Shown: positions 31,307 through 48,873, counted from the first letter of the stretch. The stretch is DNA of 64,000 bases from Candidatus Bathyarchaeota archaeon (GCA_963767735.1 CAVYES010000008.1:160001-224000), one strand, 5' to 3'. Notes: generated by a model not told the origin, from the sequence alone. Translations and numbers: made by a program.

Positions 31307-31327
31307 TGGTGACGTCGGGGGGTGGGA
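31307..31327 (-). repeat. tRNA-Leu-like 3'-end fragment (att-like scar)
   Basis: Minus strand TCCCACCCCCCG(ACGT)CACCA: acceptor-stem 3' end with CCA and a 4-nt insertion. Confidence 0.55.
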
Positions 31328-31698
31328 CATCCACCTTATTTTACCGGTAAAAAACTCCCAAAATGTGCTCACATTCGAGTGGTGAATCCAGGTAAGCATA
31401 GCCGCCCAACGGCATACTAAAAAAAGATTAACCGAGGCTCCACGGAAGAAAAGGTCAAGAAACGATTATTTGGAAAAACAGCCGAATTTTGAAATGGCGC
31501 GGGATGTTAAGTTTAAACCCAAGTTTAAATTCCACACGAAAATCCAACGATAAAAAATCAAACCTAATAGGTTTCAACGTTCAAACTCTCGGTTCGGACA
31601 CCGCGCACAAAACTACTCTAAGCAAACTCTTTTCAGGTCTCAAAAAATCAAAATTTACATATTCTTCTCTCTCACATAATGTACCAAGTAATTGTTAG

Positions 31699-33102
31699 GT
31701 GATTAATGTGGAAGCAAAAGCCAATTTTAGGCTAATAGATGAAGAGTCCAATTTAAAGTTTGAAGGAGAAGCAAAGGTCGTTCTTGATGATCAATATGTA
31801 ACCTTAGTTTTTGGATTCGGCGAGCCCAGACTTTTTTCTTACACAGACATCATCGGAATTTCAGAACAAGAATATAGAATTGAGCTATTCTTAACCTCCA
31901 AAGAAACACTGGAACTTTCGGGATTGGGGTACCAGTACGAAGACTTTCTTTCCGAACTCTACAGACTGCGAAATGAAATTTTGCTCAAATACATGTTGAT
32001 GGAAGAATCGCTCATAAAGTCAGGGTTTAACGCACAGTTCTCCTGGTTCGACTCGAAGGGGCAAGTTAACCAATCTGGCAACTGTGAACTCCGCGTGTAT
32101 GAGAACGCACTTCTTATACTACCTCAAAAAAACGAACCAATTCGCGTTCCGTACTGCTATTTATTCCAAACCAGCAAAATAGAATACACCGTCGTTCTGA
32201 ATACCGAGTTTGAAGAGAGGTTCGAATTTTCAAAACTTGGCGAAAAATTCGATGCCTTCGGCAAGAGCCTATCAGATGCGCTCAACAAAATGATGCTAAG
32301 GTCGCAAACAACCATTAAAGAAATGATCCCAGAAACTGATCCTCTCAAAACGTACAAACTCGCTGCATTAATGAAAGACGGAAGAGCAGCTAAAAGAAAA
32401 GACATAGACGCGATTTCGACAGAGCTCTGGCGACGGCTAACGAAGAAGCATCGACGAAGCAGGGATGGGTCAAGAATACGGCTTTCTCGACGCAATTGCT
32501 CTAAAAGAGCAAGAATGCGTCGGAGTGAAACGAGGGCTCATGGGAGATTTAACAGGTGATTACATATGGCTACTGTTTCCGCTTATGCAGTTCGGGATCA
32601 AACAAACTGCTGAATGTGTTGCTTTGGAAGCGTTCTCAACAAGCTCAAGTGACGAACAAAAGCCAGAAGCACAACTCGAGAAAAATAACATGGCCAGAGC
32701 TTCCAACCAGGAGGATACAGAAGAAAAAAGCTCAAATGCAAGTGGAAAGGCAACTTACTTTTTTAGGCTTCTGAGTGGACAAGCCTACACTCAAGCTCAG
32801 CGACGAAGAGCTGAAAATCGAGCTTGATAATTTTATCAAAAACATCAATCGTTGCATGATTGACATCAACTTCAGAAGAGAACCAATATACTTATCTGAT
32901 GACAGCCTTGACAGCCCTAAATACACTCAGTACCGTTTTGCGGTGGCGAAGATACCGTCTGCTCAGGGTTTTGAGGAGCCTGTTCATTGGCAGAGTAATT
33001 CATTCGTCCTTCGACCAATGGAAGAATGACATCACAAATTTATTAGACTTAAACGCTAGTATTAAGGATGATTCGGCAAAATGGAAAAAAGGAGCTAATT
33101 TA
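31699..33102 (+). CDS. Hypothetical protein with tandem PH-like domains, broken by about 3 frameshifts
   Basis: ORFs 31699-32559, 32465-32827, 32775-33029 and 32860-33147 overlap consecutively and read as one protein. Confidence 0.6.
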
Positions 33103-33104
33103 GA

Positions 33105-33440
33105 TTGCCAGGATATAAGCATCCATGCAAGTATTGTGGAAAATTAGTGTCCTCTGACGATAATGTTTGTCCGTTCTGTGGTAAAGTTAACCCGGTAGGA
33201 CCCACTAGATGCCCCAAATGTCAGAATCCAACCGAAACAGGGCAAATCAGCTGCAGCCATTGCGGTTTGTCTTTACAAACCAATTGCCCCTTCTGCGGAA
33301 AAGCAACATTTTTCGGTGACTATTGCCAAAGCTGCGGCCTTCGACTGATGGTTGTCTGCCCAAAATGCGGCACTCAACAGCCTCCTCTGGGAGAGAAATG
33401 CATAAAATGCGGTAAACCGTTATATCCTATAAAGAGATGA
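33105..33440 (+). CDS. Double zinc ribbon (DZR) protein
   Basis: Eight CxxC motifs in 111 aa. Confidence 0.85.
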   Translation: MPGYKHPCKYCGKLVSSDDNVCPFCGKVNPVGPTRCPKCQNPTETGQISCSHCGLSLQTNCPFCGKATFFGDYCQSCGLRLMVVCPKCGTQQPPLGEKCIKCGKPLYPIKR

Positions 33441-34109
33441 ATTATATGACTCTTCAACCTTTTACCAGAAACTACCAAGACAACAGTACTGACGCGGGAT
33501 TTCAATTTACGTTTTTATGCGACATCTGTGGCGACGGCTATAAAACAGCCTTCATCCAATCAAAGACCTACAAAAAAGCAGGTCTGTGGAAAGGCTTTGG
33601 CAGTGTAGCCCAAATCGGTGGACAATTAACAGGTCACAGTAGTGGATACAGTGTTGGACAGGGCGCCGACGTGATGGGGCAACGTTTTCAGGGCATGACC
33701 CCTGAATGGCACAAAGAACACGAAGCTGCTTTTGATACTGCTCAGAACGAGGCCAAAGGCCACTTCTTCCGATGCCCAAGATGCCACAAATACGTTTGTG
33801 AAAACGACTGGAACGAACAAGAAGGTCTCTGCATCAATGACGCTCCTCGCGAAAGCACCGAAGTCGCCGCAGCCCGCAATGAAAAAATGGTAGCAGATAT
33901 CAAACAAAAAGCCGAAACCACACAGGTTTTCACAGGCGAAATAAGCAGCCGACAAACAATATGCCCAGTATGCGGAAAACCAGCCGGACAAGGCAAATTC
34001 TGCAACAAACTGCGGAGCGCCCCTAGGCTTAAAAGTCTGTCCCAAATGCGGAGCAAAAAATCCTGCTGGCACAAGCTTTTGCGGTGAATGCGGAACCAAA
34101 CTTACCTAA
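33437..34109 (+). CDS. Zinc-ribbon protein with C-terminal DZR, frameshifted near 34008
   Basis: DNSTDAGFQFTFLCDIC, CPRC..VC, CPVCG...FC; continues as CGAPLGLKVCPKCG...FCGECGTKLT. Confidence 0.8.
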
Positions 34110-34343
34110 CTGCAAACAACTCAAATCGCTCATCATTTACTCCAAAACCTAACAATGATACCGAAACCAACTCTTTTGCATCGCAAAGAAGAACCCAAAA
34201 CAAAAACAAATTTCGCTTTTTTCTTTTTTTAAGGCTTTTTTTGATAATTCTAGACCATTTGAAGCGATCAACTCGATAATTGAGTAACCTGTTTATTCGT
34301 AGAAACGAGTGAAAATCAGGCCATAATTTACAAAAGGGGCAAA

Positions 34344-34389
34344 GCGTGGGATGTGGGAGTTGAACCGACGAAGGCCTGCGCCAAAGGAT
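34344..34389 (-). repeat. Degenerate tRNA-Leu-like 3' half
   Basis: Minus strand ATCCTTTGGCGCAGGCCTTCGTCGGTTCAACTCCCACATCCCACGC: long variable arm, GGTTCAA T-loop, acceptor 3' strand. Confidence 0.65.
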
Positions 34390-34469
34390 TTCCTATCAAA
34401 TTGTGGTAATTGATTATTAGTAAGAATTGTTAGTAAATACCATGTGCCTAAGGGGTAAGGAAAAAAGAT

Positions 34470-34721
34470 ATGAGGCCAGTTACTGTTACGAAGCATTCGC
34501 AAGTTACAATACCCAAAGAAATACGTGAAGAACTGGGTATAACGGAAGGAGATAAGCTGAAGATGAGAATAGTGGAAGGCAACAAAATAATGATTGAAAA
34601 AGCAAGCGAAGAAGCGTGGAAAGACTGCACTGACTTTTTACCTGACGATTTCGAAAAGGTGCTAGCATCCACACGCGTTGACTCAACAAGCAGATTCAAG
34701 CACCTTGGGCTGGTTCCCTGA
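34470..34721 (+). CDS. AbrB/MazE-family antitoxin with no toxin partner
   Basis: VTVTKHSQVTIPKEIREELGITEGDKL. Confidence 0.88.
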   Translation: MRPVTVTKHSQVTIPKEIREELGITEGDKLKMRIVEGNKIMIEKASEEAWKDCTDFLPDDFEKVLASTRVDSTSRFKHLGLVP

Positions 34722-34803
34722 ATTGCCACAAAAAGGAAAACCCGCTTTTTGCTTCGTCCCTTTCACCAAAATGAACCGCCGTTTGCAGGCCCTAAAAGTT
34801 TAG

Positions 34804-34830
34804 TGGCGCAGCGTTGGAACTTGAACCCCG
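34804..34830 (-). repeat. tRNA 3'-end fragment
   Basis: Minus strand CGGGGTTCAAGTTCCAACGCTGCGCCA. Confidence 0.55.
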
Positions 34831-35023
34831 AGGCAGTAGAGACATCGGCTCGCAAAACCCTATTTTTTCAGGCTAGTCATATTAAATTATTAAATAGTTT
34901 TTAATCTCGTTGACATAAAGATATCGAAAGCAGGATACTAGAAACAAGGGGTTGGGTCTTTGCTTCAATCAAAAGCAACAAAATTGATAGCACGCAACAG
35001 ATGACAAGCAGGGTGAATTAGAA

Positions 35024-35917
35024 ATGCACACTTTAGAATTGAATAATGTGTCTTCCGGCTACAATAAACAAGTCGTTTTACACGATATCAGCTTTAAGCT
35101 TCAAGAACCCTCAATCTACGTTGTTTTAGGGCCAAACGGCGCAGGCAAAACAACGCTGTTTAGAACAATCGCGGGCATACTAGAGCCATTCAGCGGAAAA
35201 ATTCTTCTCGACGACCAAAACACAACCACATCAGGCAAGACGCGCTCAAAAATAAGCTATCTCTCACAGTACAACGCAATGCCTGAAGAAATGACCGTGT
35301 TTAACGCGCTAAAATTTTACTCAGATATCGAAGGCGGAGACCCCGATAAGGTGATTGACCTGCTTGATCTTGGCCAACTAAAAAACAAGAGGTTTTCTGA
35401 CCTTTCACAAGGACAAAAAAAGAGAGCAGCAATCGCAAAGGTGTTCCTTCACGAAAGTGATTTGTACTTGCTGGATGAACCCACAGCGAATTTAGACCCA
35501 GCAGTTTCAAAAGAAATCCGAGATATCATCCTAAAACTAAGCAAAGACAAAATGATCCTGTACTCTTCCCACAACCTTTATGAAGCAACTGATATTGGGA
35601 CCTACCTTATTTTAATCAAAAATGGCTCAGTGACATTGTTTGATAAAATCTCAAACATTAAACCCAAACAGTACCGAGTAGGCATCAAAGCCTCAACGGA
35701 CATATCAAAAATCGTAGATGCCCACCGTGAGGGTGACTATTTTGTTTTGAATGTGTCTAGCCCTGAGGAAGCAGGGCTTGCTTTGAAGAAATTGGTTGAA
35801 AAGGGCGTTTTGGTTACTGAAATGCGTCAGCTTGATAATCCATTGCAGGAGCTTTTTGAGTCGTCAAATGGAAAGGTGGAAAAAACACAAAAGGAGCCTC
35901 AGCAAGTTGCCAAATAG
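35024..35917 (+). CDS. ABC-2 type exporter ATP-binding subunit
   Basis: GPNGAGKTT, LSQGQKKR, LLDEPT, SSH. Confidence 0.93.
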   Translation: MHTLELNNVSSGYNKQVVLHDISFKLQEPSIYVVLGPNGAGKTTLFRTIAGILEPFSGKILLDDQNTTTSGKTRSKISYLSQYNAMPEEMTVFNALKFYSDIEGGDPDKVIDLLDLGQLKNKRFSDLSQGQKKRAAIAKVFLHESDLYLLDEPTANLDPAVSKEIRDIILKLSKDKMILYSSHNLYEATDIGTYLILIKNGSVTLFDKISNIKPKQYRVGIKASTDISKIVDAHREGDYFVLNVSSPEEAGLALKKLVEKGVLVTEMRQLDNPLQELFESSNGKVEKTQKEPQQVAK

Positions 35918-36581
35918 TGCCGTAATTTTTGCTAAACGAAGCCTCAGTTTGAGCAAAATATATTCGGCTGTAGGGATTTTTTTTGCTGCCTTCGGAGTCT
36001 TTGTATCAATTGCATTCATCCTTGCTGGGCAAAGTGTGCCTGTAGCGTACTTTCTTTTTCCCTCCGCGTTTATGGCTTTTGGGATGCTTATGTTCTCTAC
36101 ATCTGTTATACTGCTTTACGTCTATGACAAAAATAACGGAGTTTTGGAGTATCTACTTTCTCTTGGATGGAGTCAAAGCGACATCTTTAAGTGCTACTTG
36201 AAATCTGCCCTTTTAATTTCGCTAACCCTTTTCACTGCTGAATTTGTTGCCAATGTTGTAGCAATTGTGATTACAGGGGCACTTCAAGGTTTAGTGACGT
36301 TAGCTTTTACCGCCATGCTGGGTTTTTCAGCCATTTCTTTAATTACAATTGCCATGATGGCTTTCAGCTCATTACAGAAGCAGAGAGTAGGTGCTAATAG
36401 TCCTCTTGCTTTAACCATTGGCGTCCCGATTATCATTCCTACATTTTACATCCCGTTTTTTTTACCATTTTATGTCGCCATTTTAGTTGAGTTATTTATT
36501 ATCGCGCTTGCCGGTGGGCTGTCAATCGTATTGTTGATTTTGTCAAGCAGACTAATCAGAAGGGAAAAAATGCTTCCATAA
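35907..36581 (+). CDS. ABC-2 type exporter permease
   Basis: About 6 TM helices, DKNNGVLEYLLSLG; likely TTG start overlapping the ATPase stop. Confidence 0.8.
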   Translation: MPNSAVIFAKRSLSLSKIYSAVGIFFAAFGVFVSIAFILAGQSVPVAYFLFPSAFMAFGMLMFSTSVILLYVYDKNNGVLEYLLSLGWSQSDIFKCYLKSALLISLTLFTAEFVANVVAIVITGALQGLVTLAFTAMLGFSAISLITIAMMAFSSLQKQRVGANSPLALTIGVPIIIPTFYIPFFLPFYVAILVELFIIALAGGLSIVLLILSSRLIRREKMLP

Positions 36582-36676
36582 ATGCCGAGCAGTTTGCAAG
36601 TTTTTTGAGCGCGAAGCCTAAGCGGCGAATCCAATTACATTTCAAAGGCAGTTATAACCCATCTCTTCAAATAGAC

Positions 36677-36892
36677 TTACTCAAATTCGGACCGGGGCTT
36701 TTCTGTTTGCTTGATAATGTATTGGATTACAAAAACGGTGACTTCTTTGTGATGCGGCACCCATGTGGTTAAAATATGCTGACGTACTGTTTTCTTGAAT
36801 GTAGTATGCTTACTGGATCTCACTTCTTGAAAGCCGTTAGACCTTAAAATTTCAATTACTTTTCGCTGAGGTAATGGTGGAAGCTTTGCCAT
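36677..36892 (-). CDS. hicA: HicA-family toxin
   Basis: MAKLPPLPQRKVIEILRSNGFQEVRSSKH...VPHHKEV...IIKQ. Confidence 0.85.
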   Translation of the reverse strand: MAKLPPLPQRKVIEILRSNGFQEVRSSKHTTFKKTVRQHILTTWVPHHKEVTVFVIQYIIKQTEKPRSEFE

Positions 36893-37130
36893 GCATAACA
36901 CTCTTTGGAACCTTGACAGGAATGTTCGTTAGAGAAAAAGACATCAAATCATCCAGCGAAGGCTTTGCAGTGTCGGGGTCACTTAAGTATTCGTCTATGA
37001 GTTCAGTCATGTTTTCTTTTACCTCTTTTTCTGTTTTTCCTTGCGTAGCAATGTCCAAAATGGGGCAAGAGGCTACAAACCATTTTCCCTCTTTTGTTAT
37101 TAGAATTGGAAGAGGTATCTTCTCACACAT
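36852..37130 (-). CDS. hicB: HicB-family antitoxin
   Basis: EGKWFVASCPILDIATQGKTEKEVKENMTELIDEYL. Confidence 0.88.
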   Translation of the reverse strand: MCEKIPLPILITKEGKWFVASCPILDIATQGKTEKEVKENMTELIDEYLSDPDTAKPSLDDLMSFSLTNIPVKVPKSVMHGKASTITSAKSN

Positions 37131-37280
37131 AATCGGTAGAATAGCCCTTTTTGCCTTATAAGGATTTTATCAAATCCAAAAGCAAAAGAAGTCATCTGGC
37201 GACATCTTTGCGACAGTTAATCAACACATATTGGCTAAAATACCCCCAATCGCGCCCTAATCGGCAAAAGGATGTAGTAA

Positions 37281-37308
37281 TGGTGCAGGGATGGGATTTG
37301 AACCCCAC
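37281..37308 (-). repeat. tRNA-Leu-like 3'-end fragment with CCA
   Basis: Minus strand GTGGGGTTCAAATCCCATCCCTGCACCA. Confidence 0.7.
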
Positions 37309-37416
37309 AAACAAAAGTGTACTTTTCGCGATCCCCATTTTTGCGTTATTTCAGTTTCACCTGAGAGCCATAGCGAAAGACGATTTTTTTGAGCCTCAAA
37401 CCTATGCCGGGTTGAT

Positions 37417-38004: not shown

Positions 38005-38137
38005 AAAATCACCAAATTAAACCCACCAAATATCCTATAAAAATGTTTTTAGCTTGTCTCGCAGACACTTTTCATCTTGTTTTTCTGGCAGTCAAAGCTC
38101 ATCAAGTTTTATACCGTTAAGTCGATAATTCAGTTGC

Positions 38138-38254: not shown

Positions 38255-38463
38255 AGTTAACTTAGCGGTGAAATGACGCTTTTTTGGAAAAATCATTGTA
38301 ATATATACAGAAAAATTTCATTTTTATTATATTTTTCTGAATGACTTTATTTGAAAAATACGAAATTGTTTTAAGTATCTTGAAACATATTTGTACCATA
38401 TATTGTAGCATATTAAGAAACATTAAAAAGCAAAATATGCATGTGTTTAACGGTGAAAAATTG

Positions 38464-38814: not shown

Positions 38815-38825
38815 AGGCCAATCAA

Positions 38826-41778: not shown

Positions 41779-44700
41779 TTACCTGAAAGTTGACAGGAGC
41801 GATTTTCTTTGCAGCTTATTAGTATTGGAGGAGGAAATCGGCTCTGATGCTGGAAGGGCCAGAGGCTGACTCTTCGAGCGCTTCCTCAGGACTGCCACGG
41901 CACCGATGGTGACGCCCGCTACGCCTATTCCGATTCCTGCGTAAGCGTAGTCGTATGCTCTGTTCACGCTGGCCTTGAGACTGCTGATTTGGTTTTGGAG
42001 AGCAGCTTGGGAAGCGTTTAGGCTTTTCCCGAGACTACTAAGCTGGTTTTGCTGAGATGTCTCAGATGAATTGAGGCTGTTTAGGCTTCCCCCCAAACTG
42101 TTGGTCTGGTTTTGCACAGAGGCTTGAGATGACTTTACGCTGTTCAGGCTACTTGTAAGACTATTGGTCTGACTTTGCAGAGACTGAATGGAGCTCTGGG
42201 AGTTTTGTAGGCTGGAAGTTTCTGAGTTTAATTGGTTCTGGAAGTACATTGTCGAGTTGGCGCTGGAGCTGACTCCGTCTGTTTGGGTGGCGACTATCAG
42301 TAGCGAGTAGCCGCCGTCGGCATAGTTGGCGGTGTTTATGGTGAAGCTGAGCGTTCCGTTGTTGCTGAAAGTTTGGGTTGGCTGGTTGTTGAGGTAAACG
42401 ACGATGGAGTTAATGCTGTTTCCTGAGACGGTTACGCTTCCGACCAGGTTACCGGTATATTTTCCTCCGTTGGTGGGCGAAGAAATCTGAATCGTAGGTG
42501 GAAGCGGGGAGATACTCTGATAGCTTGACGATGTCAACGAAAGGTTCGAGTTAACAAGAGCAATTGAGTTTAGATCAGTGTTGACTAAGTTAATGCTGCT
42601 GTTTGAAGCGACAATTTCCCCACCGTGCACGCCCTCAAGCGTTAGGTTGGCGCCGTTTGCAAATATAGTCCCGTTTACAAACGAGTCTGAGATGACGGTT
42701 GTGCCTGACGTGAACCAGTTTGATCCCATGAAGATATCGTTAGACAGGTTCGCCGATTTTGTCACGTTGACTCCGCTCAAAGCTAGCCCCGAACTCTGCT
42801 GGAACAAGGTGATTTGTTGGTTTGACAAGTACACGTAGGGCTGTATAGAGAAGGCTTGCTGGGCGGAGAGCGCGGCGGTTGTGGGGAAACCGTCGTAGGA
42901 GATGCCTGTCACGTAGACGTCGTAAGGACCAGCATAATTGAACGAGTTATCATTTATTGGTGATAGAACGCCGGCATTGTATGGTGAAGGCAGCAAGACA
43001 TTGGCGGTCCACCTGTTCAGCGTCGGACTATACAGCAATGGCGTCAACTCAAAACCCTGATACTCCGCATACATTATGGCTGTGTAGTCATTCTGCAGTT
43101 CCTGCGGATAAATAACCGCCGAGTATTCACCCTGCGTAACTTCTTGACCATTCGGATAATGAATATCAGCAGTTATCTGCGCCGTTTGCCCCATATACAA
43201 AGTTGACGGCGAAAGCGTTATCTCAGGAGTTATTGCGCCACTCGAAACAAGGATTTGACCGTAAAAGGCGCCATTGAGGGTGTACCCAAGAGTCACAGAG
43301 CCATAGTTTGCCTGAAGCAAAATCGTGTACAACCCAGGAGCCGCGTTAGACGGGACCGTGAGCAAGCCGACCATTTCTGAATTTTGCAAAAACAGGCTCG
43401 TGCTCGCAACCGTTTGACCCGACGGAGTTAATAGAAAGGCATTGACGTTTGAGCCGCTGGCCACATCGGAACCGATTGTTTCGCCAGTATCATACGATGT
43501 CTCTTTTGCAACGTTCAATGGGGCAATGGGAGAGACAGAGAGAGTAAGTGATTGTCCAGGGGCTATCGCGCCAGGTTCCACTGCCACCTCAGGGAGGACG
43601 ACGGCGGTTTGCAGGTAAATCCCATTGGTAAACGGTAGAAATCCATACGTGCCCCCCTGAAGCATCAAATCGATGGGGCCTGCTGGATATGGGGATGTTA
43701 GCGTCGCTTCAGTTACGTTTACTCCAGATACAAGGGTAGGTTGCAGCGTAACCGTGCCTTGAGAGCTGTAGAGATTATTGAGAATCGAATAGGAATTCAC
43801 CTGCATTGTGAGCGGTTGCAACGGGGCTGGATTGCCGTAGAGGTCTGTAGCGGTGACAACCACTTTTAAGCCTCCCGCTGTTGTCCATGGGTCTGTTGGA
43901 GTTGGACTAGTGAAGGTTGCGAGGTAACCAGCAAAAATTTCGGCGGAACCCGCCCCTGAAATTCCTGCTGATGTGCCGTTGACGTTGACGTATGCAACAC
44001 CGGACTGCTGCCCCATCACGAAAGAAGCACTAAAAGCCCCGCTTGCACTGTCGAAATTCATAGGAATGGATAAGGAAGCCCCATTAAGCGTCACAAGGCT
44101 GGCTGTAAAGCTTCCAGTAGTTATAGGCGTGAAGAAAGCTCCATTATAGATAGATGCTGTTACCTCAACAGTTTGACCCGAAGTGAATTCAAGTTGAGAT
44201 CCGCCTGTGGAGTTAGCGACTCCGACTAAAACGATTAGGCTGGACTGTGGATTTTGAGCGTTGTAGAGGGAAGCAATTTCGCCGATATTGGGACTACCCC
44301 ATCCTGTAGCAAGATTATAACCATAAGATGAAGTCCACGGGATAGTGTTGCCAAATGTGATAGGAGTGAAAGCTTTGGCGTAAGTAGCAGCGCTATTGCC
44401 CAGGCTATAAAGGAACGGATTGATGAGACCAAGCGGACCTCCCGCAGACTCAGCTACCAGTGTGAGTAGCCCCGAGAGAAGCTGAACAGATTCCGACGTG
44501 CCGCCCACAGCCATAACTGAACCCGAATCCACGATGAAAGTGGCTGGATTAACACCAGCCTGCAAAGAAAGATCTGGTTCCAATCTTCCGTTCGGATAAG
44601 AGGGAGGTGTCTGCTGACTTTGCTGATACCACGGCTTAGGCTCCACAAAACTTACCCCGCCTCCGCCTCCACCAGAATTAACAAAGTTCGGGACGTATCC

Positions 44701-45951
44701 GCCGTTCGACCACGCCGTTTGAGCGACCGTTTCGGTCCCGTTTGGTTGAGTGTAGAAGTAAGTTTGAGTTCCTCCCACAGCAGTAACATATGGTGAATTA
44801 TCTGGGTTTCCTAAGTTGCCTGCCGGGCCTGAACTGTAGCCACTTCCTCCTCCATCACCTGTGGAGCTTAGGAAAGTGATTCCCTCAAGCGAGCCCAACA
44901 TGAAGTACTGGTCGGGGAGAAACATGTTGAAATAAAACAGTGGTCCGCCAATGACAGAGTCCTCCCATTCGGGGGCAATAGAAAAGCTCATTGAAAGTGT
45001 AGTGACACTATCGTCACCTACTATTTGTGCAATATCATAGGCAAAACTTGGCGCGCCGGTCGTCACGTACATATCAATGGCGGCTTTAGGAGCCATTGCA
45101 TGCGATATCTCAACATCAAGAGATACTTCGGTGCTCCAGCCCTCCGAAACGCCAAGGTTAGGATTGTAGGGCACAATAGGTGTCACAGTCAAGCTCGGAT
45201 TTGAGAACCCGAATTGTGCATCGAAAAGCTGCAAATCTTGGGTGATGGTCGGAGAGCCAAAAAATTCAAGCAGACCAATAGTCTGGCCTTGGCCTTGGAA
45301 GCCCTGTGCATAAAGAGAGGTTGCGTTATAAACGCTCTGAAGAGCCTTCGCAGATGACGCTCCTTCCGAGAAGGTCACGTTTGCATTCGTTTGAGACGCT
45401 GCAGAACTTGCTACCTGTGGTTGAACCATAAGGCTTGTCGCGTTCGATGCAACAAAATAAGCTCCTTCAAACAAGGAATTCCCGCTCGTTACATAATAAG
45501 AGTCCGTGCCATTCGAGTAAATGTTCACGCTGGCACCAAAGTACTGATTAACCTGGGCAACAGTAGCCTGAACAATTATCATGGAATCCATAGATTGCCT
45601 AACAACCTGCAATCCGACCCCCTGAAGATAAGCAAGCATCGAATTATACGCGTCCACAGGCAAGAATTCCTGTTGAATCTGAGTACTGGTCAAAAATTGC
45701 CTAAACAAAGGCGACGAGGGGTTCGAAACTTGCTCCACCATAGAACTGAGAAGCCCCACATTTCTCAAAGGAATCGCAATGTTAACAAGCACAGAGAGAT
45801 CACTCGGCGCTTGACCCTGAAGAACATAGCCTAAAAGGGGCTGAGCAACATTGGAACTGGAATCAGCAACATAGAAACTGGCTCCCAAAACGCTGCTGAC
45901 CGACGAGACGACCAGCAAAATCAAAACTAAACTAACGATTAAGCCCTTCAC
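41779..45951 (-). CDS. Membrane-anchored sedolisin/kumamolisin (S53) protease
   Basis: Signal peptide, pro-domain, catalytic EVSLDVE, STGDGG, GGTSES; Ig-like stalk, coiled coil, C-terminal TM followed by RKR. Confidence 0.9.
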   Translation of the reverse strand: MKGLIVSLVLILLVVSSVSSVLGASFYVADSSSNVAQPLLGYVLQGQAPSDLSVLVNIAIPLRNVGLLSSMVEQVSNPSSPLFRQFLTSTQIQQEFLPVDAYNSMLAYLQGVGLQVVRQSMDSMIIVQATVAQVNQYFGASVNIYSNGTDSYYVTSGNSLFEGAYFVASNATSLMVQPQVASSAASQTNANVTFSEGASSAKALQSVYNATSLYAQGFQGQGQTIGLLEFFGSPTITQDLQLFDAQFGFSNPSLTVTPIVPYNPNLGVSEGWSTEVSLDVEISHAMAPKAAIDMYVTTGAPSFAYDIAQIVGDDSVTTLSMSFSIAPEWEDSVIGGPLFYFNMFLPDQYFMLGSLEGITFLSSTGDGGGSGYSSGPAGNLGNPDNSPYVTAVGGTQTYFYTQPNGTETVAQTAWSNGGYVPNFVNSGGGGGGVSFVEPKPWYQQSQQTPPSYPNGRLEPDLSLQAGVNPATFIVDSGSVMAVGGTSESVQLLSGLLTLVAESAGGPLGLINPFLYSLGNSAATYAKAFTPITFGNTIPWTSSYGYNLATGWGSPNIGEIASLYNAQNPQSSLIVLVGVANSTGGSQLEFTSGQTVEVTASIYNGAFFTPITTGSFTASLVTLNGASLSIPMNFDSASGAFSASFVMGQQSGVAYVNVNGTSAGISGAGSAEIFAGYLATFTSPTPTDPWTTAGGLKVVVTATDLYGNPAPLQPLTMQVNSYSILNNLYSSQGTVTLQPTLVSGVNVTEATLTSPYPAGPIDLMLQGGTYGFLPFTNGIYLQTAVVLPEVAVEPGAIAPGQSLTLSVSPIAPLNVAKETSYDTGETIGSDVASGSNVNAFLLTPSGQTVASTSLFLQNSEMVGLLTVPSNAAPGLYTILLQANYGSVTLGYTLNGAFYGQILVSSGAITPEITLSPSTLYMGQTAQITADIHYPNGQEVTQGEYSAVIYPQELQNDYTAIMYAEYQGFELTPLLYSPTLNRWTANVLLPSPYNAGVLSPINDNSFNYAGPYDVYVTGISYDGFPTTAALSAQQAFSIQPYVYLSNQQITLFQQSSGLALSGVNVTKSANLSNDIFMGSNWFTSGTTVISDSFVNGTIFANGANLTLEGVHGGEIVASNSSINLVNTDLNSIALVNSNLSLTSSSYQSISPLPPTIQISSPTNGGKYTGNLVGSVTVSGNSINSIVVYLNNQPTQTFSNNGTLSFTINTANYADGGYSLLIVATQTDGVSSSANSTMYFQNQLNSETSSLQNSQSSIQSLQSQTNSLTSSLNSVKSSQASVQNQTNSLGGSLNSLNSSETSQQNQLSSLGKSLNASQAALQNQISSLKASVNRAYDYAYAGIGIGVAGVTIGAVAVLRKRSKSQPLALPASEPISSSNTNKLQRKSLLSTFR

Positions 45952-46721
45952 GAAAACACTTCCAGAATAAAAAAATCTTAATTTTCATAAACTCGCATCA
46001 TCCACCTTACTATCATCAGAAATTTAACTTCACGTGGGTCACACGCCCGCGCATTCCGCAACAAAAAGACTAGCTATTCTTGGTTATCTATTTTGAAAGT
46101 AATCTAATATATGCTTTTGTGACTACAAAGCGAAGTCTCAAACTTTTGCGCGCTTATACGGTGAAAGGCAAATATGCAAAAGCAACCATTACCCAATACC
46201 TTAAAGCTGTTCAGACTAGCATCACCACAATTAATTATTTTTTTCTTGATCACTGCGACACACCGACGCCTGCAAACAGGTTCTTGCATACAATTACTAA
46301 ACCACAAAACATAGGGAACCATGCCGATATAGGCAACAACGCCTATAACAGATCTAACCAAGGGCTAGAAGGGGATTATCTTGAAGATTACCCTAGGAAT
46401 AATCTACGTTAAGCATTCCCCACCACCTCCTTCGGAGCTGAATGGATAGTAAACCCTTTCTTTAGATTAATCATCATTACTTTCAATTATTTTTTTCTTA
46501 ATTACTCCAATGCCTATTCCCATAATAGGCGGAGACCACTTTTGTTGCCTAGCAGCCATTGCCAAAGTAACAACGCAGTAATCATGATAGCCTTCGGGCT
46601 ATGTTTTGTAAAAGTTCCTTAGCGTGGGAGTTGAAGTTGGCGTTGGAGCGGTTGTGGTTGCTGTTATGCAGTCACAGAGTCTTAAAGGCATGATTTTACA
46701 AAAATAACAACGGTGTTTTAA

Positions 46722-47006
46722 TTGGAAAAAAGCATGATGAAATATCAAGTTTTAATCAAAACGATTTCAGGAAAGGGCGGCGAGTTCTGGGAAGCGTTCA
46801 AAAAAATGCCTACCGAGCCAATGAAAGGAGTAATGGTGGAGTCTTCCTGGAGCTTATATGGATACTGGGATTTCGTTATTTTCTTCAAAGCCGACAGCAA
46901 TGAAAACAGCCTTCACTTCATCGGAGAGGTCTTACGAGCAATGCCGGGCATCGCCGATACCAGCACGTCACCGATGACCGTTCTCAAAGAACACAAAAAG
47001 CTATAG
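46722..47006 (+). CDS. Lrp/AsnC ligand-binding (RAM)/GYD-like small protein
   Basis: WSLYGYWDFVIFFKA...LRAMPGIADTST. Confidence 0.65.
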   Translation: MEKSMMKYQVLIKTISGKGGEFWEAFKKMPTEPMKGVMVESSWSLYGYWDFVIFFKADSNENSLHFIGEVLRAMPGIADTSTSPMTVLKEHKKL

Positions 47007-47204
47007 ACAACTGTATCGTAACTATTTCGTCCCTTCTTTTTCTTTCCAAGCATCTTGAAATGTGGTTGAAGGTCCATCCTCTGGCAAATTGAGTAGGGCA
47101 TGGATTTTGAAGCCTCATTGCTGTAGAGGCACTGCCCATCAATTCCTCTTTACGTGAGGGACTAACTCATTTAAATTCCCGTAAACATCTGGAATTGTGT
47201 GAAT

Positions 47205-47330
47205 TCACTTTTTGAGAGTTTGATTGGCGAGTTAATGGTGAAGGTTGTTCACTTTTCCAACTGGCTTTCGACGGTGATTTTTCCCCAGGGCATCTACTAT
47301 CCACTTACAAATAGCCAAACCCCTTCCTGG
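47205..47330 (-). pseudogene. Histidine kinase HATPase C-terminal remnant
   Basis: GRGLAICKWIVDA[frameshift]ITVESQLEK*TTFTINSPI matches the G2-box end of HATPase_c. Confidence 0.65.
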
Positions 47331-47376
47331 GCGTCGATACAAATTACTTGGGGTCTCTTAAAGAAAAGAGAGTGTA

Positions 47377-47709
47377 CTATTGTGTTTTGAGTCCGCTAAG
47401 TCTCTTGTTGAGTTCATCAAAGATCAGTTGCTTTTTCTCTTCGCTTAAGTTGAAGATAACCTTGTTAGCCATTTCATTTGAAATTGTAAAAATATAGTTT
47501 AATTTTATGACGCTGTCTTTTATGGCGCCTTCATTTTTGGTTAGGGGTATTCCCTTCATCTTAAGATTGCTTGTTATGCCCGCTATCACAACATTGCCAA
47601 GTTCTTCGAACAAAACCACGGCGGGTCTAACTTTCACTTCATCGGCATCAGTGAACTGCACTCTGGCAAGGATAACATCGCCAGGCTTAAGCATCTTCCC
47701 AAGCCTCAT
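47377..47709 (-). CDS. PemK/MazF-family toxin
   Basis: PGDVILARVQFTD...KVRPAVVL, ITSN, DSVIK. Confidence 0.88.
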   Translation of the reverse strand: MRLGKMLKPGDVILARVQFTDADEVKVRPAVVLFEELGNVVIAGITSNLKMKGIPLTKNEGAIKDSVIKLNYIFTISNEMANKVIFNLSEEKKQLIFDELNKRLSGLKTQ

Positions 47710-47929
47710 CTTCCTCGTTATCCCATAATTCTTTCATTTTCGCCTGCTGAATCCTATGGAGAAACTCATCGTATTGCCTTCTCTTGCCCGATTCCTTTGC
47801 AGTTTTTATTAAATTTAAAATGGTTTCGTTGTAGGTTTCTCTTGGGTATTTCCTGATATTTTTGAGTTCCTTAACTACCGATTTCTTAAGCTGTATTGAG
47901 GTAACATCTTCGTTTGTCATATAAGTCAC
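47687..47929 (-). CDS. RHH-type antitoxin for the PemK toxin
   Basis: TSIQLKKSV..L...RETYNETI; acidic tail LWDNEEDEAW; overlaps the toxin gene. Confidence 0.8.
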   Translation of the reverse strand: MTYMTNEDVTSIQLKKSVVKELKNIRKYPRETYNETILNLIKTAKESGKRRQYDEFLHRIQQAKMKELWDNEEDEAWEDA

Positions 47930-47982
47930 TATAACTAACTATAGCTCATTATAATAAATTTATTGCCCCAAGCATTAAAGTT

Positions 47983-48026
47983 AGTGTTTCGTGCTCGCAG
48001 GGGTTCGAATCCCTTCCCCGGCGCCA
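47983..48026 (+). repeat. tRNA-Ser-like 3' half with CCA (att-like scar)
   Basis: AGTGTTTCGTGCTCGCAGGGGTTCGAATCCCTTCCCCGGCGCCA; no D-arm or 5' acceptor strand upstream. Confidence 0.75.
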
Positions 48027-48386
48027 TCAACAAAGTAGGGTCCTTATTTTTGAGAACGCTCGCCTTACGGTCGACCAACCAAATTCGTAAATTGTTATTT
48101 TAGGGCAGCGTAAATTTAATATTGCTATAAGGATAAAGAGAAGCTATAAGACCCCCCCTCGGGGTCTGTCTCTGTCTGTCTATGTGACTCACTATGCCGC
48201 TGTTTGAAACAAAAAAGAGCAATATACTGCAAGACCTTTCCGTACTAGATACACAATCGGATCCACCAGACGGCATACTGCTCTGCCGCGAAACGCTCCT
48301 GACATTCATGGCTTCCAACGTCTCTAACATCTTTTACTCGGTCTGTATCAAAGCTTATAGGGTCAACGAGATGTTTTCTATTGTAA

Positions 48387-48620
48387 GTGTCGGTTATGGT
48401 AAAAATCAAGGGAAAAAAATTCACAGTAATCTTAAGAGAGGAGCTTGAAAGTGGCTATTCAGCTCAATGCCTGGAACTTCCTGGAGCGTTAAGCGAAGGC
48501 GACAGCCGCAAGGAAGCACTTGCCAACATTAAAGAAGCCATCGAAGGTTACTTGGAAGTTTTCCCAGAAGAAGTTTACCTGCTTAAACGCAAAAGAGAGT
48601 TCGTGGAAATAACTGTCTGA
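48387..48620 (+). CDS. hicB: HicB-family antitoxin
   Basis: GYSAQCLELPGALSEGDSRKEALANIKEAIEGYL. Confidence 0.9.
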   Translation: MSVMVKIKGKKFTVILREELESGYSAQCLELPGALSEGDSRKEALANIKEAIEGYLEVFPEEVYLLKRKREFVEITV

Positions 48621-48833
48621 AAAGCTGCCGTCTGTCTCTTGGCGGGAAATCATAAAGCTCTCGCTAAAGCCAAATTTACCGTTGCCGGCCAGAAGGGGAG
48701 CCACATATTTTTAGCTGATGGAAAACACAAACTCACCGTTCCACGCCATGACTCAGTCAAAAAAGGAACGCTTCTAGCCATAATACAACAAGCCGGGTTA
48801 ACAAAGGATGAATTTATTGAATTGCTCAAATGA
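48613..48833 (+). CDS. hicA: HicA-family toxin, frameshifted near 48655
   Basis: SEKLPSVSWREII then ALAKAKF...QKGSH...VPRH..VKKGTL.AIIQQAG. Confidence 0.85.
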
Positions 48834-48841
48834 AAGGCGGT

Positions 48842-48873
48842 TGGAGGCTTCGGCGAGATTTGGACCCGCCACC
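48842..48873 (-). repeat. Degenerate tRNA 3' fragment at the island's right edge
   Basis: Minus strand GGTGGCGGGTCCAAATCTCGCCGAAGCCTCCA. Confidence 0.6.

What the first reader, a model, noticed from the sequence alone, without database searches (positions are those of the whole stretch)
31307..48873. Eight degenerate tRNA 3'-end fragments punctuate the accessory cassettes, with no intact tRNA or integrase
Seen: T-arm/acceptor fragments at 31307, 34344, 34804, 37281, 41523, 41741, 47983 and 48842. They appear to come from several isotypes (Leu-like, Ser-like, others), lie on both strands and are always intergenic at cassette edges. Known: archaeal tyrosine-integrase elements duplicate tRNA 3' ends as att sites. 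Inference: a graveyard or capture platform where cassettes first integrated at different tRNAs have accumulated, possibly by recombination between tRNA-derived sites acting like integron attC sites with an integrase supplied in trans.
Basis: partly seen in the sequence, partly recalled or inferred. Interest (0 to 1): 0.7.

Follow-up and report, generated by a model that had tools for sequence, protein, structure and literature searches.

The report
tRNA-scar mosaic island in Bathyarchaeia
A 21-kb accessory island in an archaeal genome is stitched together from small gene cassettes, mostly toxin-antitoxin pairs, that still carry the tRNA-end scars of the sites where their relatives sit in other species.

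Summary
Of the eight claimed tRNA 3'-end fragments:
- Five are clearly tRNA-derived: 34341 Leu(TAA), 37279 Leu, 41518 Ser(CGA), 47988 Ser(CGA) with 45/45 identical, and 48840 Thr(GGT).
- One (31307) is supported only by homology to Leu att sites in relatives.
- Two (34804, 41741) cannot be told from chance.

No tRNA gene and no integrase lies in the window.

The fragments sit in a 20.9-kb island (28067-49006) inserted into a spacer between the divergent aIF5A and NAD kinase genes. That spacer measures 38-265 nt in 22 of 26 relatives where both genes share a contig.

The island is a mosaic of at least 11 small units, five of them toxin-antitoxin (TA) modules. In related species the same units lie directly 3' of the intact cognate tRNA gene, in tandem arrays separated by the same tRNA-end repeats:
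- HicBA at tRNA-Thr in 6 of 7 loci.
- MazEF at tRNA-Ser(CGA) in 6 of 22 loci.
- The ABC unit at tRNA-Ser(GCT) in 3 of 5 loci.
- The protease unit at tRNA-Ser(CGA) in 1 of 2 loci.

The fragments are therefore att scars carried along with cassettes. An integron-like capture mechanism is not shown. An intact integrase does sit beside the genome's own tRNA-Leu(TAA). How array pieces reached a tRNA-less site remains inferred.

The parts
27615..28058 (-). aIF5A gene, core left flank of the island
   Evidence: Pfam IF5A-like_N/eIF-5a. Colinear with relatives up to 28066.
28067..49006 (.). 20.9-kb mosaic accessory island
   Evidence: In G004 (L037) and G018 (L035), window 28066 and 49007 are joined with an 8-nt overlap. 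In 22 of 26 relatives with both genes on one contig the gap is 38-265 nt.
28198..28384 (.). 190-nt AT-rich non-coding repeat near the left edge; six copies in the genome, two of the other five <100 nt from a tRNA fragment
30465..31328 (-). HEPN/MNT toxin-antitoxin unit (MNT 30479-30817, HEPN 30814-31110) ending in F1
   Evidence: Pfam. 90% identical unit in G070 (L140) flanked by Leu-type atts; also G079 and G040.
31307..31330 (-). F1: short Leu(TAA)-like acceptor-end remnant. Weak on its own; supported by position homology.
   Evidence: SW 22. Window 31316-31354 is 95% identical to C8:132246-132284. Aligns to the Leu-type att of L140.
31596..34231 (+). Operon unit of unknown function (includes a double zinc-ribbon protein). 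Single copy in this genome; different neighbours in each relative.
   Evidence: L147, L179-L181.
34341..34395 (-). F2: tRNA-Leu(TAA) 3' fragment running from the anticodon stem. Its last 8 nt differ from that tRNA and match tRNA-Ser(GCT) 7/8.
   Evidence: SW 59, 34/37.. Window 34353-34389 is 92% identical to C9:60118-60154 and to L140 5712-5748.
34470..34721 (+). Orphan MazE/AbrB-type antitoxin gene between F2 and F3
   Evidence: Pfam MazE_antitoxin, 1.9e-13.
34804..34834 (-). F3: T-arm-like stretch with TTCAAGT loop. Not distinguishable from chance.
   Evidence: SW 25 against a null 99th percentile of 25. No match in 30 relatives.
35025..36582 (+). ABC ATPase plus 261-aa unit
   Evidence: Pfam ABC_tran. 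Directly 3' of intact tRNA-Ser(GCT) in L175, L176 and L178, of tRNA-Phe in L188, and no tRNA in L177.
36669..37304 (-). HicA toxin plus 92-aa partner unit, ending in F4
   Evidence: Pfam HicA. 88% in G090 (L137) including the att. L138 and L139 end before it.
37279..37312 (-). F4: tRNA-Leu 3' end with CCA and two indels
   Evidence: SW 46.
37410..38064 (-). RibD_C single-gene unit
   Evidence: Pfam. 90% in G040 and G067. A 29% paralog lies between Leu(GAG) repeats at C8:133585-134169.
38270..41302 (.). Unit of 157-aa, 474-aa, dCTP deaminase and 143-aa genes
   Evidence: Pfam DCD. In metagenome contig L168 it lies within a discrete 3.5-kb insertion with a ~20-nt direct repeat and an integrase C-terminal remnant.
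41518..41544 (+). F5: degenerate tRNA-Ser(CGA) T-arm/acceptor remnant opening the protease unit
   Evidence: SW 34. Aligns to the 3' end of intact tRNA-Ser(CGA) in G069 L143.
41741..41765 (-). F6: T-loop-like stretch inside the protease unit. Unconfirmed.
   Evidence: SW 31 against a null maximum of 30 and a shuffle maximum of 36. No match in 30 relatives. The G069 homolog is not tRNA-like.
41779..45951 (-). 1390-aa sedolisin-like (pro-kumamolisin activation domain) protein gene; the unit spans 41523-46159
   Evidence: Pfam. 89% in G069 between tRNA-Ser(CGA) and a 27-nt Ser repeat.
46603..47107 (+). AsnC-ligand-domain-like 94-aa single-gene unit
   Evidence: Pfam. 86-89% in many genus genomes, with different neighbours in each of the 4 fetched.
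47366..47987 (-). MazF (47377-47709) plus antitoxin (47687-47929) unit
   Evidence: Pfam PemK. 22 relatives' loci examined.
47988..48032 (+). F7: pristine tRNA-Ser(CGA) 3' fragment
   Evidence: 45/45 identity including 6 nt of 3' flank.
48000..48334 (+). Repeat block that begins with the Ser att end (whole T-arm in 3 of 4 copies). Four copies in the genome, and in three a toxin-antitoxin module lies on the 5' side.
   Evidence: 93% identical copy inside the tRNA-Ser array of G087 (L134).
48344..48839 (+). HicB (48387-48620) and HicA (48639-48833) unit
   Evidence: Pfam. In tRNA-Thr arrays in 6 of 7 relatives' loci.
48840..48899 (-). F8: tRNA-Thr(GGT) 3' fragment, about 59 nt from the D-loop region to the 3' end
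   Evidence: SW 73..
49041..49892 (+). NAD kinase gene, core right flank
   Evidence: Pfam. Colinear with relatives from 49007.

Best explanation
Window 28067-49006 is a mosaic accessory island in a Bathyarchaeia genome. It is inserted into the normally very short spacer between the divergent aIF5A and NAD kinase genes.

The island is built from at least 11 small units of 0.4-4.6 kb. Five are toxin-antitoxin modules.

The tRNA-like pieces are not decayed tRNA genes. They are attachment-site (att) scars: copies of the 3' part of a tRNA, running from the anticodon or variable arm to the 3' end. Site-specific integration into a tRNA gene leaves such copies at the borders of the inserted DNA.

In this genus such units pile up in tandem arrays directly behind tRNA genes, each separated by a tRNA-end repeat. 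Most have lost their integrase.

Pieces of three such arrays now lie in this hotspot without the 5' halves of their tRNAs:
- A Leu-type array, minus orientation, F1-F4.
- A Ser(CGA)-type array, plus orientation, F5 to F7.
- A Thr(GGT)-type unit, minus orientation, F8.

Shown:
- The identity of five fragments.
- The empty site in relatives.
- The same units at cognate tRNA genes in relatives.
- Integrase remnants beside some units in relatives.

Inferred:
- That integration was by tyrosine integrases.
- That the integrases were lost while toxin-antitoxin cargo persisted.
- The route by which array pieces reached this tRNA-less site.
For: 1. Fragment identity.

2. Precise island borders and an empty site in G004 and G018. 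The two genes are adjacent in 22 of the 26 relatives where both lie on one contig.

3. The island DNA, searched against 120 genus genomes, breaks into discrete units found at scattered places. Unit ends fall at F1, F4, F5, F7 and F8.

4. Context in relatives:
- HicBA plus F8 lies immediately 3' of, or within the array of, an intact tRNA-Thr in 6 of 7 loci (5 GGT, 1 CGT). In G113 and G101 it is a ~0.56-kb cassette closed by a 52- or 36-nt Thr repeat.
- MazEF lies in tRNA-Ser(CGA) arrays in 6 of 22 loci. Three more loci have a Ser att only, one has tRNA-Arg(TCT), and 12 have no tRNA or att within 2.5 kb.
- The protease unit lies between tRNA-Ser(CGA) and a 27-nt Ser repeat in G069 (1 of 2 loci).
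- The ABC unit lies directly 3' of tRNA-Ser(GCT) in 3 of 5 loci.
- HEPN/MNT is flanked by Leu-type atts in G070.

5. The host genome shows the same habit at its own tRNA genes. PIN plus antitoxin lies between tRNA-Pro(CGG) and a 44-nt repeat. ParE plus partner lies between tRNA-Arg(TCT) and a 98-nt repeat. Two RHH/PIN pairs lie behind tRNA-Ser(CGA).

6. Integrases:
- Intact ones lie next to tRNA-Leu genes in G046 (L130) and in the host (C9:58555-59871, beside tRNA-Leu(TAA)).
- Decayed ones lie beside units in L131, L168 and L186.
- An SSV-type pseudogene lies beside the host's Thr attR.

7. Independent public contigs with at most one mismatch bridge F1 (31180-31744) and the right island edge (48977-49240).
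Against: - No pair of matching att repeats bounds any single unit in the window. Only F5 and F7, both Ser(CGA) in direct orientation, bracket a 6.4-kb multi-unit stretch.
- Several unit junctions carry no recognisable att: 30382/30465, 36582/36669, 38064/38270, 46159/46603, 47107/47366 and 48334/48344.
- Twelve of 22 MazEF relatives, and all fetched loci of the 31596-34231 operon (4), show no tRNA or att nearby. Of the four AsnC-like loci, only L183 and L185 show a short Leu-like fragment (22 and 29 nt). So not every unit is demonstrably tRNA-linked.
- The site itself has no tRNA in any relative, so the insertion step is unexplained.
- Two of the eight fragments may be chance.
- No integrase activity or excision was observed.
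Confidence: 0.7

Rival explanations
1. The island is an active capture platform that works like an integron or like cis-mobilizable elements. Integrase-less cassettes, each carrying a tRNA-end att, would be excised as circles and re-inserted at any matching att, including those in this island, by tyrosine integrases encoded elsewhere in the genome.
For: - Minimal cassettes of 0.56-0.8 kb are bounded by 36-98-nt tRNA repeats at real tRNA genes in the host and in relatives.
- The same cassette type sits at different tRNAs. HicBA is at Thr(GGT) and Thr(CGT). A VapBC at Pro(CGG) has a 79% paralog about 0.6 kb 3' of tRNA-Pro(TGG), and a 68-69% relative sits in a Ser(GCT) array.
- The att(Ser)+block repeat has 4 copies in the genome, with a different toxin-antitoxin module on the 5' side in 3 of them.
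- G070 has a tRNA-less array sharing HEPN/MNT-att and the F2-type att with this island, but with a different cassette between them.
- F7 is pristine.
- An intact integrase sits beside tRNA-Leu(TAA).
Against: - Most fragments in the island are decayed. F4 has indels, F5 has a deletion, and F1 keeps about 12 nt.
- Tycheposon-like or decay histories explain integrase-less units equally well. Integrase remnants lie beside units in L131, L168 and L186.
- No Ser(CGA)-associated integrase was found in the host.
- The att identities and orientations are mixed.
Confidence: 0.17
2. No dedicated recombinase is involved. Because tRNA 3' ends are nearly invariant across species, they would act as portable short homology. 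Circularised foreign DNA carrying a tRNA-end copy would integrate by general (RadA-type) recombination, leaving direct repeats. Recombination between such repeats, or within the shared T-arm, would then shuffle array pieces.
For: - Repeat lengths for one tRNA vary widely: Ser(CGA) 19-45 nt and Thr(GGT) 35-52 nt.
- Non-tRNA direct repeats flank other integrase-less insertions. A 26-nt repeat of the aIF5A start flanks the insertion in G003. A ~20-nt repeat flanks it in L168. A ~490-nt duplication flanks it in G090.
- F2 changes identity exactly at the end of the T-arm. It is 92% identical to the Leu(TAA) att up to that point. After it, 3/8 bases match the Leu acceptor and 7/8 match tRNA-Ser(GCT), whose 17-nt T-arm is identical to that of three host tRNA-Leu genes (TAG, GAG, C7:169873) and differs by 1 nt from tRNA-Leu(TAA).
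Against: - Fragment starts (anticodon loop or variable arm) fit the usual att extents of tRNA-targeting integrases.
- Integrases, intact or decayed, are found beside several arrays.
- L168's insertion carries an integrase remnant at its edge.
- Different elements are expected to have att identities of different length in any case.
Confidence: 0.1
3. The tRNA-like pieces are chance matches, an assembly chimera joined through tRNA repeats, or the remains of a local tRNA gene cluster.
For: - F1, F3 and F6 score within or near the null.
- The genome is a metagenome-derived assembly of 10 contigs.
Against: - Five fragments score far above the null, and one is 45/45 identical.
- The flanks are colinear with relatives on both sides.
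- Public contigs bridge F1 and the right edge.
- Relatives show an empty spacer without any tRNA.
Confidence: 0.03

Closest known systems
Remnants of tRNA-targeting integrative elements in archaea (SSV-type and pNOB8-type tyrosine integrases)
   Same: - Duplicated 3' parts of tRNA genes mark the element borders.
- Elements decay and leave cargo and partial att or int pieces.
- The conserved T stem-loop serves as the core site.
Sources: passages read in PMC3718332 and PMC7253208.
   Different: - Here the scars lie at a locus without any tRNA gene.
- They come from at least four tRNAs.
- They border very small units (0.4-4.6 kb), with no integrase piece in the island.
Tycheposon-shaped genomic islands of Prochlorococcus
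   Same: Repeated integration at tRNA genes pushes older elements into an island. That leaves fragmented integrases and partial tRNAs scattered through the island, and cargo behaves as plug-in cassettes. Source: passages of bioRxiv 10.1101/2020.12.28.424599.
   Different: - Those islands sit next to their tRNA gene and belong to bacteria.
- Membership would need the tycheposon recombinase and replication modules, which were not looked for here.
- The cargo here is dominated by toxin-antitoxin pairs.
Cis-mobilizable elements (CIMEs) and accretion at att sites of ICEs/IMEs
   Same: Att-flanked units without their own recombinase lie in tandem with integrase-bearing elements. The concept is recalled; only search listings were seen.
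   Different: - CIMEs are described in Firmicutes with conjugative helpers.
- Trans-mobilisation is untested here.
- The island has no paired att around single units.
Integrons
   Same: An array of small cassettes separated by short recombination sites. Toxin-antitoxin cassettes are common in chromosomal integrons (recalled).
   Different: - No intI, attI or Pc next to the array.
- The sites are tRNA ends of several kinds and in both orientations, not attC.
- The units include whole gene pairs and operons, unlike single-ORF integron cassettes; no promoters were mapped.

Membership tests
att scars of tRNA-targeting tyrosine-integrase elements | The sequence is a copy of the 3' part of a tRNA gene (from the anticodon, variable or T arm to the 3' end) | tested here: met
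   Met for F2, F4, F5, F7 and F8. F1 is met only by position homology. F3 and F6 are not met.
att scars of tRNA-targeting tyrosine-integrase elements | An intact target tRNA gene sits at one end of the integrated DNA | tested here: not met
   No tRNA in the window. The feature is met for homologous units in relatives: HicBA in 6 of 7 loci, MazEF in 6 of 22, the ABC unit in 3 of 5, and the protease unit in 1 of 2.
att scars of tRNA-targeting tyrosine-integrase elements | An integrase gene lies within or beside the element | tested here: not met
   None of 16 PF00589 matches or 6 PF16795 matches lies in the window. Island ORFs show no recombinase family: 35 were scanned with Pfam and 23 of those without a Pfam match were also scanned with PHROGs. 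Intact or decayed integrases lie beside related units in L130, L131, L168 and L186.
att scars of tRNA-targeting tyrosine-integrase elements | Direct repeats of the same tRNA end bracket the inserted DNA | tested here: inconclusive
   Only F5 and F7 (both Ser(CGA), + strand) bracket 41545-47987. F1, F2 and possibly F3 are Leu(TAA)-like and all on the minus strand. No single unit in the window has a matching pair.
Integron | An intI integrase gene with attI and a cassette promoter at the head of the array | tested here: not met
   No tyrosine recombinase in the window. No common site at unit borders other than the tRNA ends.
Integron | attC sites of one kind and one orientation after each cassette | tested here: not met
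   The sites derive from at least four tRNAs and lie on both strands. Six junctions have none.
CIME-like, trans-mobilised att-flanked units | The unit is flanked by att on both sides and lacks a recombinase | tested here: met
   Met at tRNA genes of the host (Pro(CGG), Arg(TCT), Ser(CGA)) and of relatives (G113, G101, G125, G069). Not met for single units inside the window.
CIME-like, trans-mobilised att-flanked units | Excision or integration catalysed by an integrase encoded elsewhere | not testable with these tools
   Public contigs showed no joints, but they were low-depth contigs only.
Tycheposon | A tycheposon-clade recombinase plus a replication module, with the island adjacent to one of the target tRNAs | not tested
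   No recombinase in the island to place in a tree. The island is not adjacent to a tRNA.

The most novel reading that the evidence does not exclude
This Bathyarchaeia genus may run a genus-wide cassette system analogous to integrons but built on tRNA ends. Integrase-less units of 0.5-5 kb, mostly toxin-antitoxin pairs, would each carry a tRNA-3'-end att. Integrases acting in trans would shuffle them between arrays behind tRNA genes and secondary tRNA-less platforms such as this aIF5A/NAD-kinase hotspot and the G070 array. The near-universal T-arm would allow crossovers between att sites of different tRNAs, of which the chimeric F2 could be a product.
Probability: 0.22. Interest if true: 0.75.

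Novelty: new variant of a known kind. Interest (0 to 1): 0.5.

Why it matters
Mobile elements of Bathyarchaeia are almost unstudied. My searches listed no paper describing tRNA-linked cassette arrays or toxin-antitoxin mini-cassettes in this class.

The locus gives a concrete picture of how accessory genes are organised there:
- Very small, mostly integrase-less units are marked by tRNA-end scars.
- They stack behind tRNA genes.
- They are sometimes relocated to hotspots between core genes.

If the units are still mobilised in trans, this would be an archaeal, tRNA-based counterpart of integron or CIME logic. It would also explain why toxin-antitoxin genes are so numerous and so variably placed in these genomes.

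If the units are not mobilised in trans, the island is an ordinary graveyard of integrative elements in an unusual place.

Tried and rejected
- **Rfam in E-value mode** on 30000-50000. It gave only two 13-18-nt T-arm hits to tmRNA at F7 and F4 and four unrelated weak hits. It is not useful for fragments.
- **Ungapped PWM of tRNA 3' ends**. It found F7, F8, F4 and F2 only, and its low scores are near the shuffle level.
- **Internal copies of the aIF5A-start repeat** that flanks the G003 insertion. Only the left copy, 28042-28067, is present in the window. There is a weak right-end resemblance (score 26), so serial integration at that site is not shown.
- **A common border motif** other than tRNA ends. 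None was found. One 25-nt, 76% repeat near both island ends (28422 and 48977) is of chance quality.
- **PADLOC.** Only weak candidate-family hits for MNT and generic ABC ATPase hits.
- **PHROGs.** Nothing for 23 unknown ORFs.
- **Public reads.** No RNA holder was listed. Contigs of four DNA runs were laid on 29600-49500 and showed no joints. The loose ends at 31484, 34353/34389 and 48000/48021/48334 coincide with the ends of repeats mapped, so they probably come from the other copies in the genome. Depth was about 1-4x, in contigs only.
- **Earlier scan notes.** None exist for this genome.
- **tRNA positions in five relatives**. The listing was cut at 150 rows and omits low-scoring intron-bearing tRNAs, so 'no tRNA nearby' for G070, G079, G090, G117 and G099 rests on ARAGORN runs on stretches of about +-3 kb.
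- **Decayed local tRNA genes.** I considered this and rejected it because of the empty site in relatives.
- **Incomplete tRNA set.** My first host tRNA set missed an intron-bearing tRNA-Leu(TAA) (found). The assembly also lacks a tRNA-Ser(GCT). Assignments of F3 and F6 may therefore still change.

Full report
**Setting**

The window is C8:160001-224000 of a 3.04-Mb, 10-contig archaeal assembly with 43% G+C and intron-bearing tRNAs. The closest SRP54 loci in public genomes are titled Bathyarchaeia/Bathyarchaeota MAGs. The window holds no tRNA gene.

**Are the fragments real?**

I built a host tRNA set from Infernal and ARAGORN. I later added an intron-bearing tRNA-Leu(TAA) at C9:60101-60230 that both programs had missed. 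I also added tRNA-Ser(GCT) and tRNA-Phe from relatives.

Gapped local alignment of 71-nt windows against the 3' 62 nt of these 48 tRNAs gave the following scores. The null came from 500 random genomic 71-mers, with a 99th percentile of 25 and a maximum of 30.

| Fragment | Coordinates | Score | Best match |
|---|---|---|---|
| F7 | 47988-48032(+) | 90 | tRNA-Ser(CGA) |
| F8 | 48840-48899(-) | 73 | tRNA-Thr(GGT) |
| F2 | 34341-34395(-) | 59 | tRNA-Leu(TAA) |
| F4 | 37279-37312(-) | 46 | a tRNA-Leu |
| F5 | 41518-41544(+) | 34 | tRNA-Ser(CGA) |
| F6 | 41741-41765(-) | 31 | weak |
| F3 | 34804-34834(-) | 25 | weak |
| F1 | 31307-31330(-) | 22 | weak |

- F7 is 45/45 identical to tRNA-Ser(CGA) at C5:21603-21726, including six bases past CCA.
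- F8 covers about 59 nt of tRNA-Thr(GGT), from the D-loop region onward.
- F2 matches tRNA-Leu(TAA) 34/37 from the anticodon stem to the end of the T-arm.
- F3 and F6 found nothing in 30 relatives. They fall inside the range of shuffled windows.
- F1 keeps only about 12 tRNA-like bases. It lies where G070 and G079 have a 32-34-nt Leu-type att at the end of the same unit.

Five of the eight are therefore solid, one is supported by position, and two are unconfirmed. All eight lie between the ORFs with family matches; F2 and F4 overlap only short ORFs without one.

Fragments of this kind are common in the genome. By my count, there are 24 places at E<=1e-3 outside tRNA genes, after dropping two rows. 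The island holds about ten times the average density. Of 8 clusters scoring >=27 in the window, 7 lie in the island.

**What the region is**

The core genes on the left are Pus10, SRP54 and aIF5A. Those on the right are NAD kinase, a PIN-domain protein and an aminotransferase.

In G004 and G018 the window positions 28066 and 49007 are joined directly. Among 30 relatives, aIF5A and NADK lie on one contig in 26. The gap between the matched parts is 38-265 nt in 22 of these. It is 1.0, 1.2, 2.2 and 23.1 kb in G020, G014, G003 and G013.

The spacer is therefore a recurrent insertion hotspot:
- G013 carries an unrelated 23-kb island with a terminase-like gene, a type IIG restriction-modification gene and two VapBC pairs, and no integrase by Pfam.
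- G003 carries a 2.1-kb insert with a P-loop kinase/dCMP-deaminase fusion. It is flanked by a 26-nt direct repeat of the aIF5A start region.
- No relative has a tRNA at this site.

**The island is a mosaic of small units**

I searched island DNA against 120 genomes of the genus. It splits into discrete pieces that occur at scattered places. Coordinates below are window coordinates.

| Unit | Coordinates | Att fragment at its edge |
|---|---|---|
| Unknown genes | 29357-30382 | none |
| HEPN/MNT | 30465-31328 | ends in F1 |
| Unknown operon | 31596-34231 | none |
| ABC pair | 35025-36582 | none |
| HicA unit | 36669-37304 | includes F4 |
| RibD_C | 37410-38064 | none |
| Protease unit | 41523-46159 | starts in F5 |
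| AsnC-like gene | 46603-47107 | none |
| MazEF | 47366-48026 | includes F7 |
| HicBA | 48344-48888 | includes F8 |

A metagenome search added an eleventh unit, 38270-41302.

Most island genes have no close paralog elsewhere in the host. What is repeated in the host are border pieces:
- The Ser att plus a 190-335-nt block, in 4 copies.
- The F1 and F2 flanks.
- A 190-nt AT-rich repeat near the left edge, in 6 copies.

**Where the units sit in relatives**

- **HicBA.** In 6 of 7 loci it lies in an array headed by an intact tRNA-Thr (GGT in five, CGT in one). In G113 and G101 it is a ~0.56-kb cassette closed by a 52- or 36-nt Thr repeat. G081 has two further Thr repeats downstream.
- **MazEF.** 22 loci were examined.
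  - Six lie in arrays of an intact tRNA-Ser(CGA). An example is G091: tRNA, cassette, att, MazEF, att.
  - Three have a Ser att only.
  - One lies 320 nt from tRNA-Arg(TCT).
  - Twelve have neither within 2.5 kb. These are the more distant copies (75-79% identity), and their similarity stops before F7.
- **Protease unit.** In G069 it lies between an intact tRNA-Ser(CGA) and a 27-nt Ser repeat, and F5 aligns to the tRNA's 3' end. G064 has no tRNA or att nearby.
- **ABC unit.** It is directly 3' of intact tRNA-Ser(GCT) in G003, G018 and G124. It follows tRNA-Phe in G111. In G004 it is a plain insertion between host-colinear flanks.
- **HEPN/MNT.** In G070 it lies between two Leu-type atts, with a third att whose flank matches F2's flank. 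That whole 4.6-kb array is itself at a tRNA-less site.

The host shows the same habit at its own tRNA genes:
- PIN plus antitoxin between tRNA-Pro(CGG) and a 44-nt repeat.
- ParE plus partner between tRNA-Arg(TCT) and a 98-nt repeat.
- Two RHH/PIN pairs behind tRNA-Ser(CGA).
- ParE plus an IS200 fragment behind a second tRNA that ARAGORN also calls Ser(CGA) (C3:37145-37269, a different sequence).

**Recombinases**

The genome has 16 PF00589 matches, about 10 in long open frames, and none is in the window. Several lie beside tRNA genes. One intact 439-aa integrase (C9:58555-59871) sits immediately 3' of the intact tRNA-Leu(TAA) whose end F2 copies. A 24-nt Leu(TAA) repeat lies 36 kb away.

A 67%-identical integrase sits beside tRNA-Leu(TAG) in G046. 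Decayed integrase pieces lie beside related units in G101 (L131), G104 (L186) and the metagenome contig L168. In L168 a 33-37-residue C-terminal remnant sits at the edge of the 3.5-kb insertion that carries the 38270-41302 unit, and that insertion has a ~20-nt non-tRNA direct repeat.

An SSV-type integrase pseudogene lies beside the host's Thr(GGT) attR.

**Reading of the anatomy**

The fragment orientations are coherent.
- F1, F2, F3 (if real) and F4 are all on the minus strand and Leu-like. Units lie on their 3' sides, as in an array.
- F5 and F7 are both Ser(CGA) on the plus strand. They bracket the protease, AsnC-like and MazEF units, and the Ser-att repeat block follows F7.
- F8 is on the minus strand with HicBA on its 3' side.

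The island therefore looks like pieces of three tRNA-headed arrays that have lost the 5' halves of their tRNAs. They are joined head-to-head at 37313-41517 and tail-to-tail at 48334/48344.

The fragment starts (anticodon loop, variable arm or T-arm) are those expected of att identities rather than of random truncation. For archaeal integrases the literature places the att at the 3' end of tRNA genes. It proposes the conserved T stem-loop as the core, and suggests this could allow promiscuous targeting of different tRNA genes (PMC7253208, passages). Scattered partial tRNAs and fragmented integrases in islands built by repeated integration are described for Prochlorococcus (bioRxiv 10.1101/2020.12.28.424599, passages). 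Decayed remnants at tRNA genes are described for Sulfolobus (PMC3718332, passages).

**Mechanism**

- Shown: the identity of the scars, the empty site, and the cognate-tRNA location of homologous units.
- Inferred (about 0.7): the units entered by site-specific integration at tRNA genes. Integrases were later lost, while toxin-antitoxin cargo persisted. Array pieces were then relocated to the aIF5A-NADK hotspot.
- Open: the relocation step.

Two observations hint at recombination within att sites. First, F2 is 92% identical to the Leu(TAA) att and its 5' flank up to the end of the T-arm. Its last 8 nt then match tRNA-Ser(GCT) 7/8 and the Leu acceptor 3/8. The 17-nt T-arm of tRNA-Ser(GCT) is identical to that of three host tRNA-Leu genes (TAG, GAG and C7:169873), and differs by one base from tRNA-Leu(TAA), F2's source. 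Second, G000 and G070 share HEPN/MNT-att and the F2-type att but differ in the cassette between them.

Whether a trans-acting integrase or general short-homology recombination did this cannot be decided here. Repeat lengths for one tRNA vary from 19 to 52 nt. Non-tRNA repeats flank other integrase-less inserts. Both facts keep the second option alive.

**Checks on the assembly**

Public soil-metagenome contigs match the island at scattered positions in three runs, with at most one mismatch in most listed pieces. They bridge F1 (31180-31744) and the right edge (48977-49240). No joints indicating excision were seen, but depth was only about 1-4x and contigs only were available.

**Verdict**

The integron analogy describes the look of the arrays, but no defining feature of integrons is met. 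I file the island as a new variant of a known kind: att-scar-bearing remnants of tRNA-targeting integrative elements. It is unusual for three reasons. It lies at a tRNA-less hotspot, it mixes scars from several tRNAs, and it consists of very small, mostly toxin-antitoxin units.

Noticed in passing
G000 C9:60101-60230 (outside the window): An apparently intact class-II tRNA-Leu(TAA) with an intron at a non-canonical place. The Infernal tRNA model and ARAGORN's default run both missed it. ARAGORN's relaxed mode mis-called it tRNA-Arg(CCT). An intact 439-aa tyrosine integrase lies directly 3' of it, and a 24-nt copy of its 3' end lies at C9:24248-24271. This suggests a ~36-kb integrated element.
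   Followed up: partly
window 28198-28384: A 190-nt AT-rich non-coding repeat with tandem TTTATACG motifs. The genome has six copies at 75-89% identity. Two of the other five lie <100 nt from a tRNA fragment (C6:359702, C7:89510) and one lies 470 nt from tRNA-Ala (C4:295406). Its function is unknown. It may be an element end, a regulatory region or a replication region.
   Followed up: partly
L033 (G003:C1:2183000-2190500), positions about 2970-5080: The same aIF5A/NADK spacer in G003 holds a 2.1-kb insert flanked by a 26-nt direct repeat of the aIF5A start and promoter region. It carries one 419-aa P-loop kinase/dCMP-deaminase fusion gene and no integrase.
   Followed up: partly
L031+L032 (G013:C5:60000-88500): G013 has an unrelated 23-kb island at the same spacer. 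It holds a terminase-large-subunit-like gene, a type IIG restriction-modification enzyme, AsnC-type regulators, an ABC-2 transporter, a radical SAM gene and two VapBC pairs next to aIF5A. Only weak tRNA-like hits of 13-17 nt were found.
   Followed up: partly
G000 C7:66999-67903, C2:237790-238737, C5:19707-21726, C3:36016-37269: Toxin-antitoxin mini-cassettes of 0.7-1.9 kb (PIN/DUF6290, ParE/DUF2683, two RHH/PIN pairs, ParE plus an IS200 fragment) lie between intact tRNA genes and 19-98-nt direct repeats of their 3' ends, without an integrase.
   Followed up: partly
L168 (metagenome contig), 9117-12617: The 38270-41302 unit (dCTP deaminase plus three unknown genes) lies within a 3.5-kb insertion at a site that is uninterrupted in the host (C5:~66760). 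It is flanked by a ~20-nt direct repeat, GAAGCnATAAAAGACTAG, and starts with a 33-37-residue integrase C-terminal remnant.
   Followed up: partly
L137 (G090:C4:76400-83100), 2526-4270: The HicA unit with its Leu-type att is flanked on both sides by copies (80% and 84% identity) of a ~490-nt stretch that is single-copy in the host (C4:470838-471329).
   Followed up: no
window 41962-42141: Three tandem 54-63-nt repeats (63-71% identity) lie inside the 3' part of the 1390-aa sedolisin-like gene, in its coiled-coil-like C-terminal region.
   Followed up: no
window 34470-34721: A MazE/AbrB-type antitoxin gene stands alone between F2 and F3, with no recognisable toxin partner.
   Followed up: no
window 31596-34231, 35025-36582 and 46603-47107: These units are single-copy in the host, yet they are present at 70-89% identity in many genomes of the genus, always with different neighbours. 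Genes that look like soft-core genes of the genus therefore also move as small units.
   Followed up: partly
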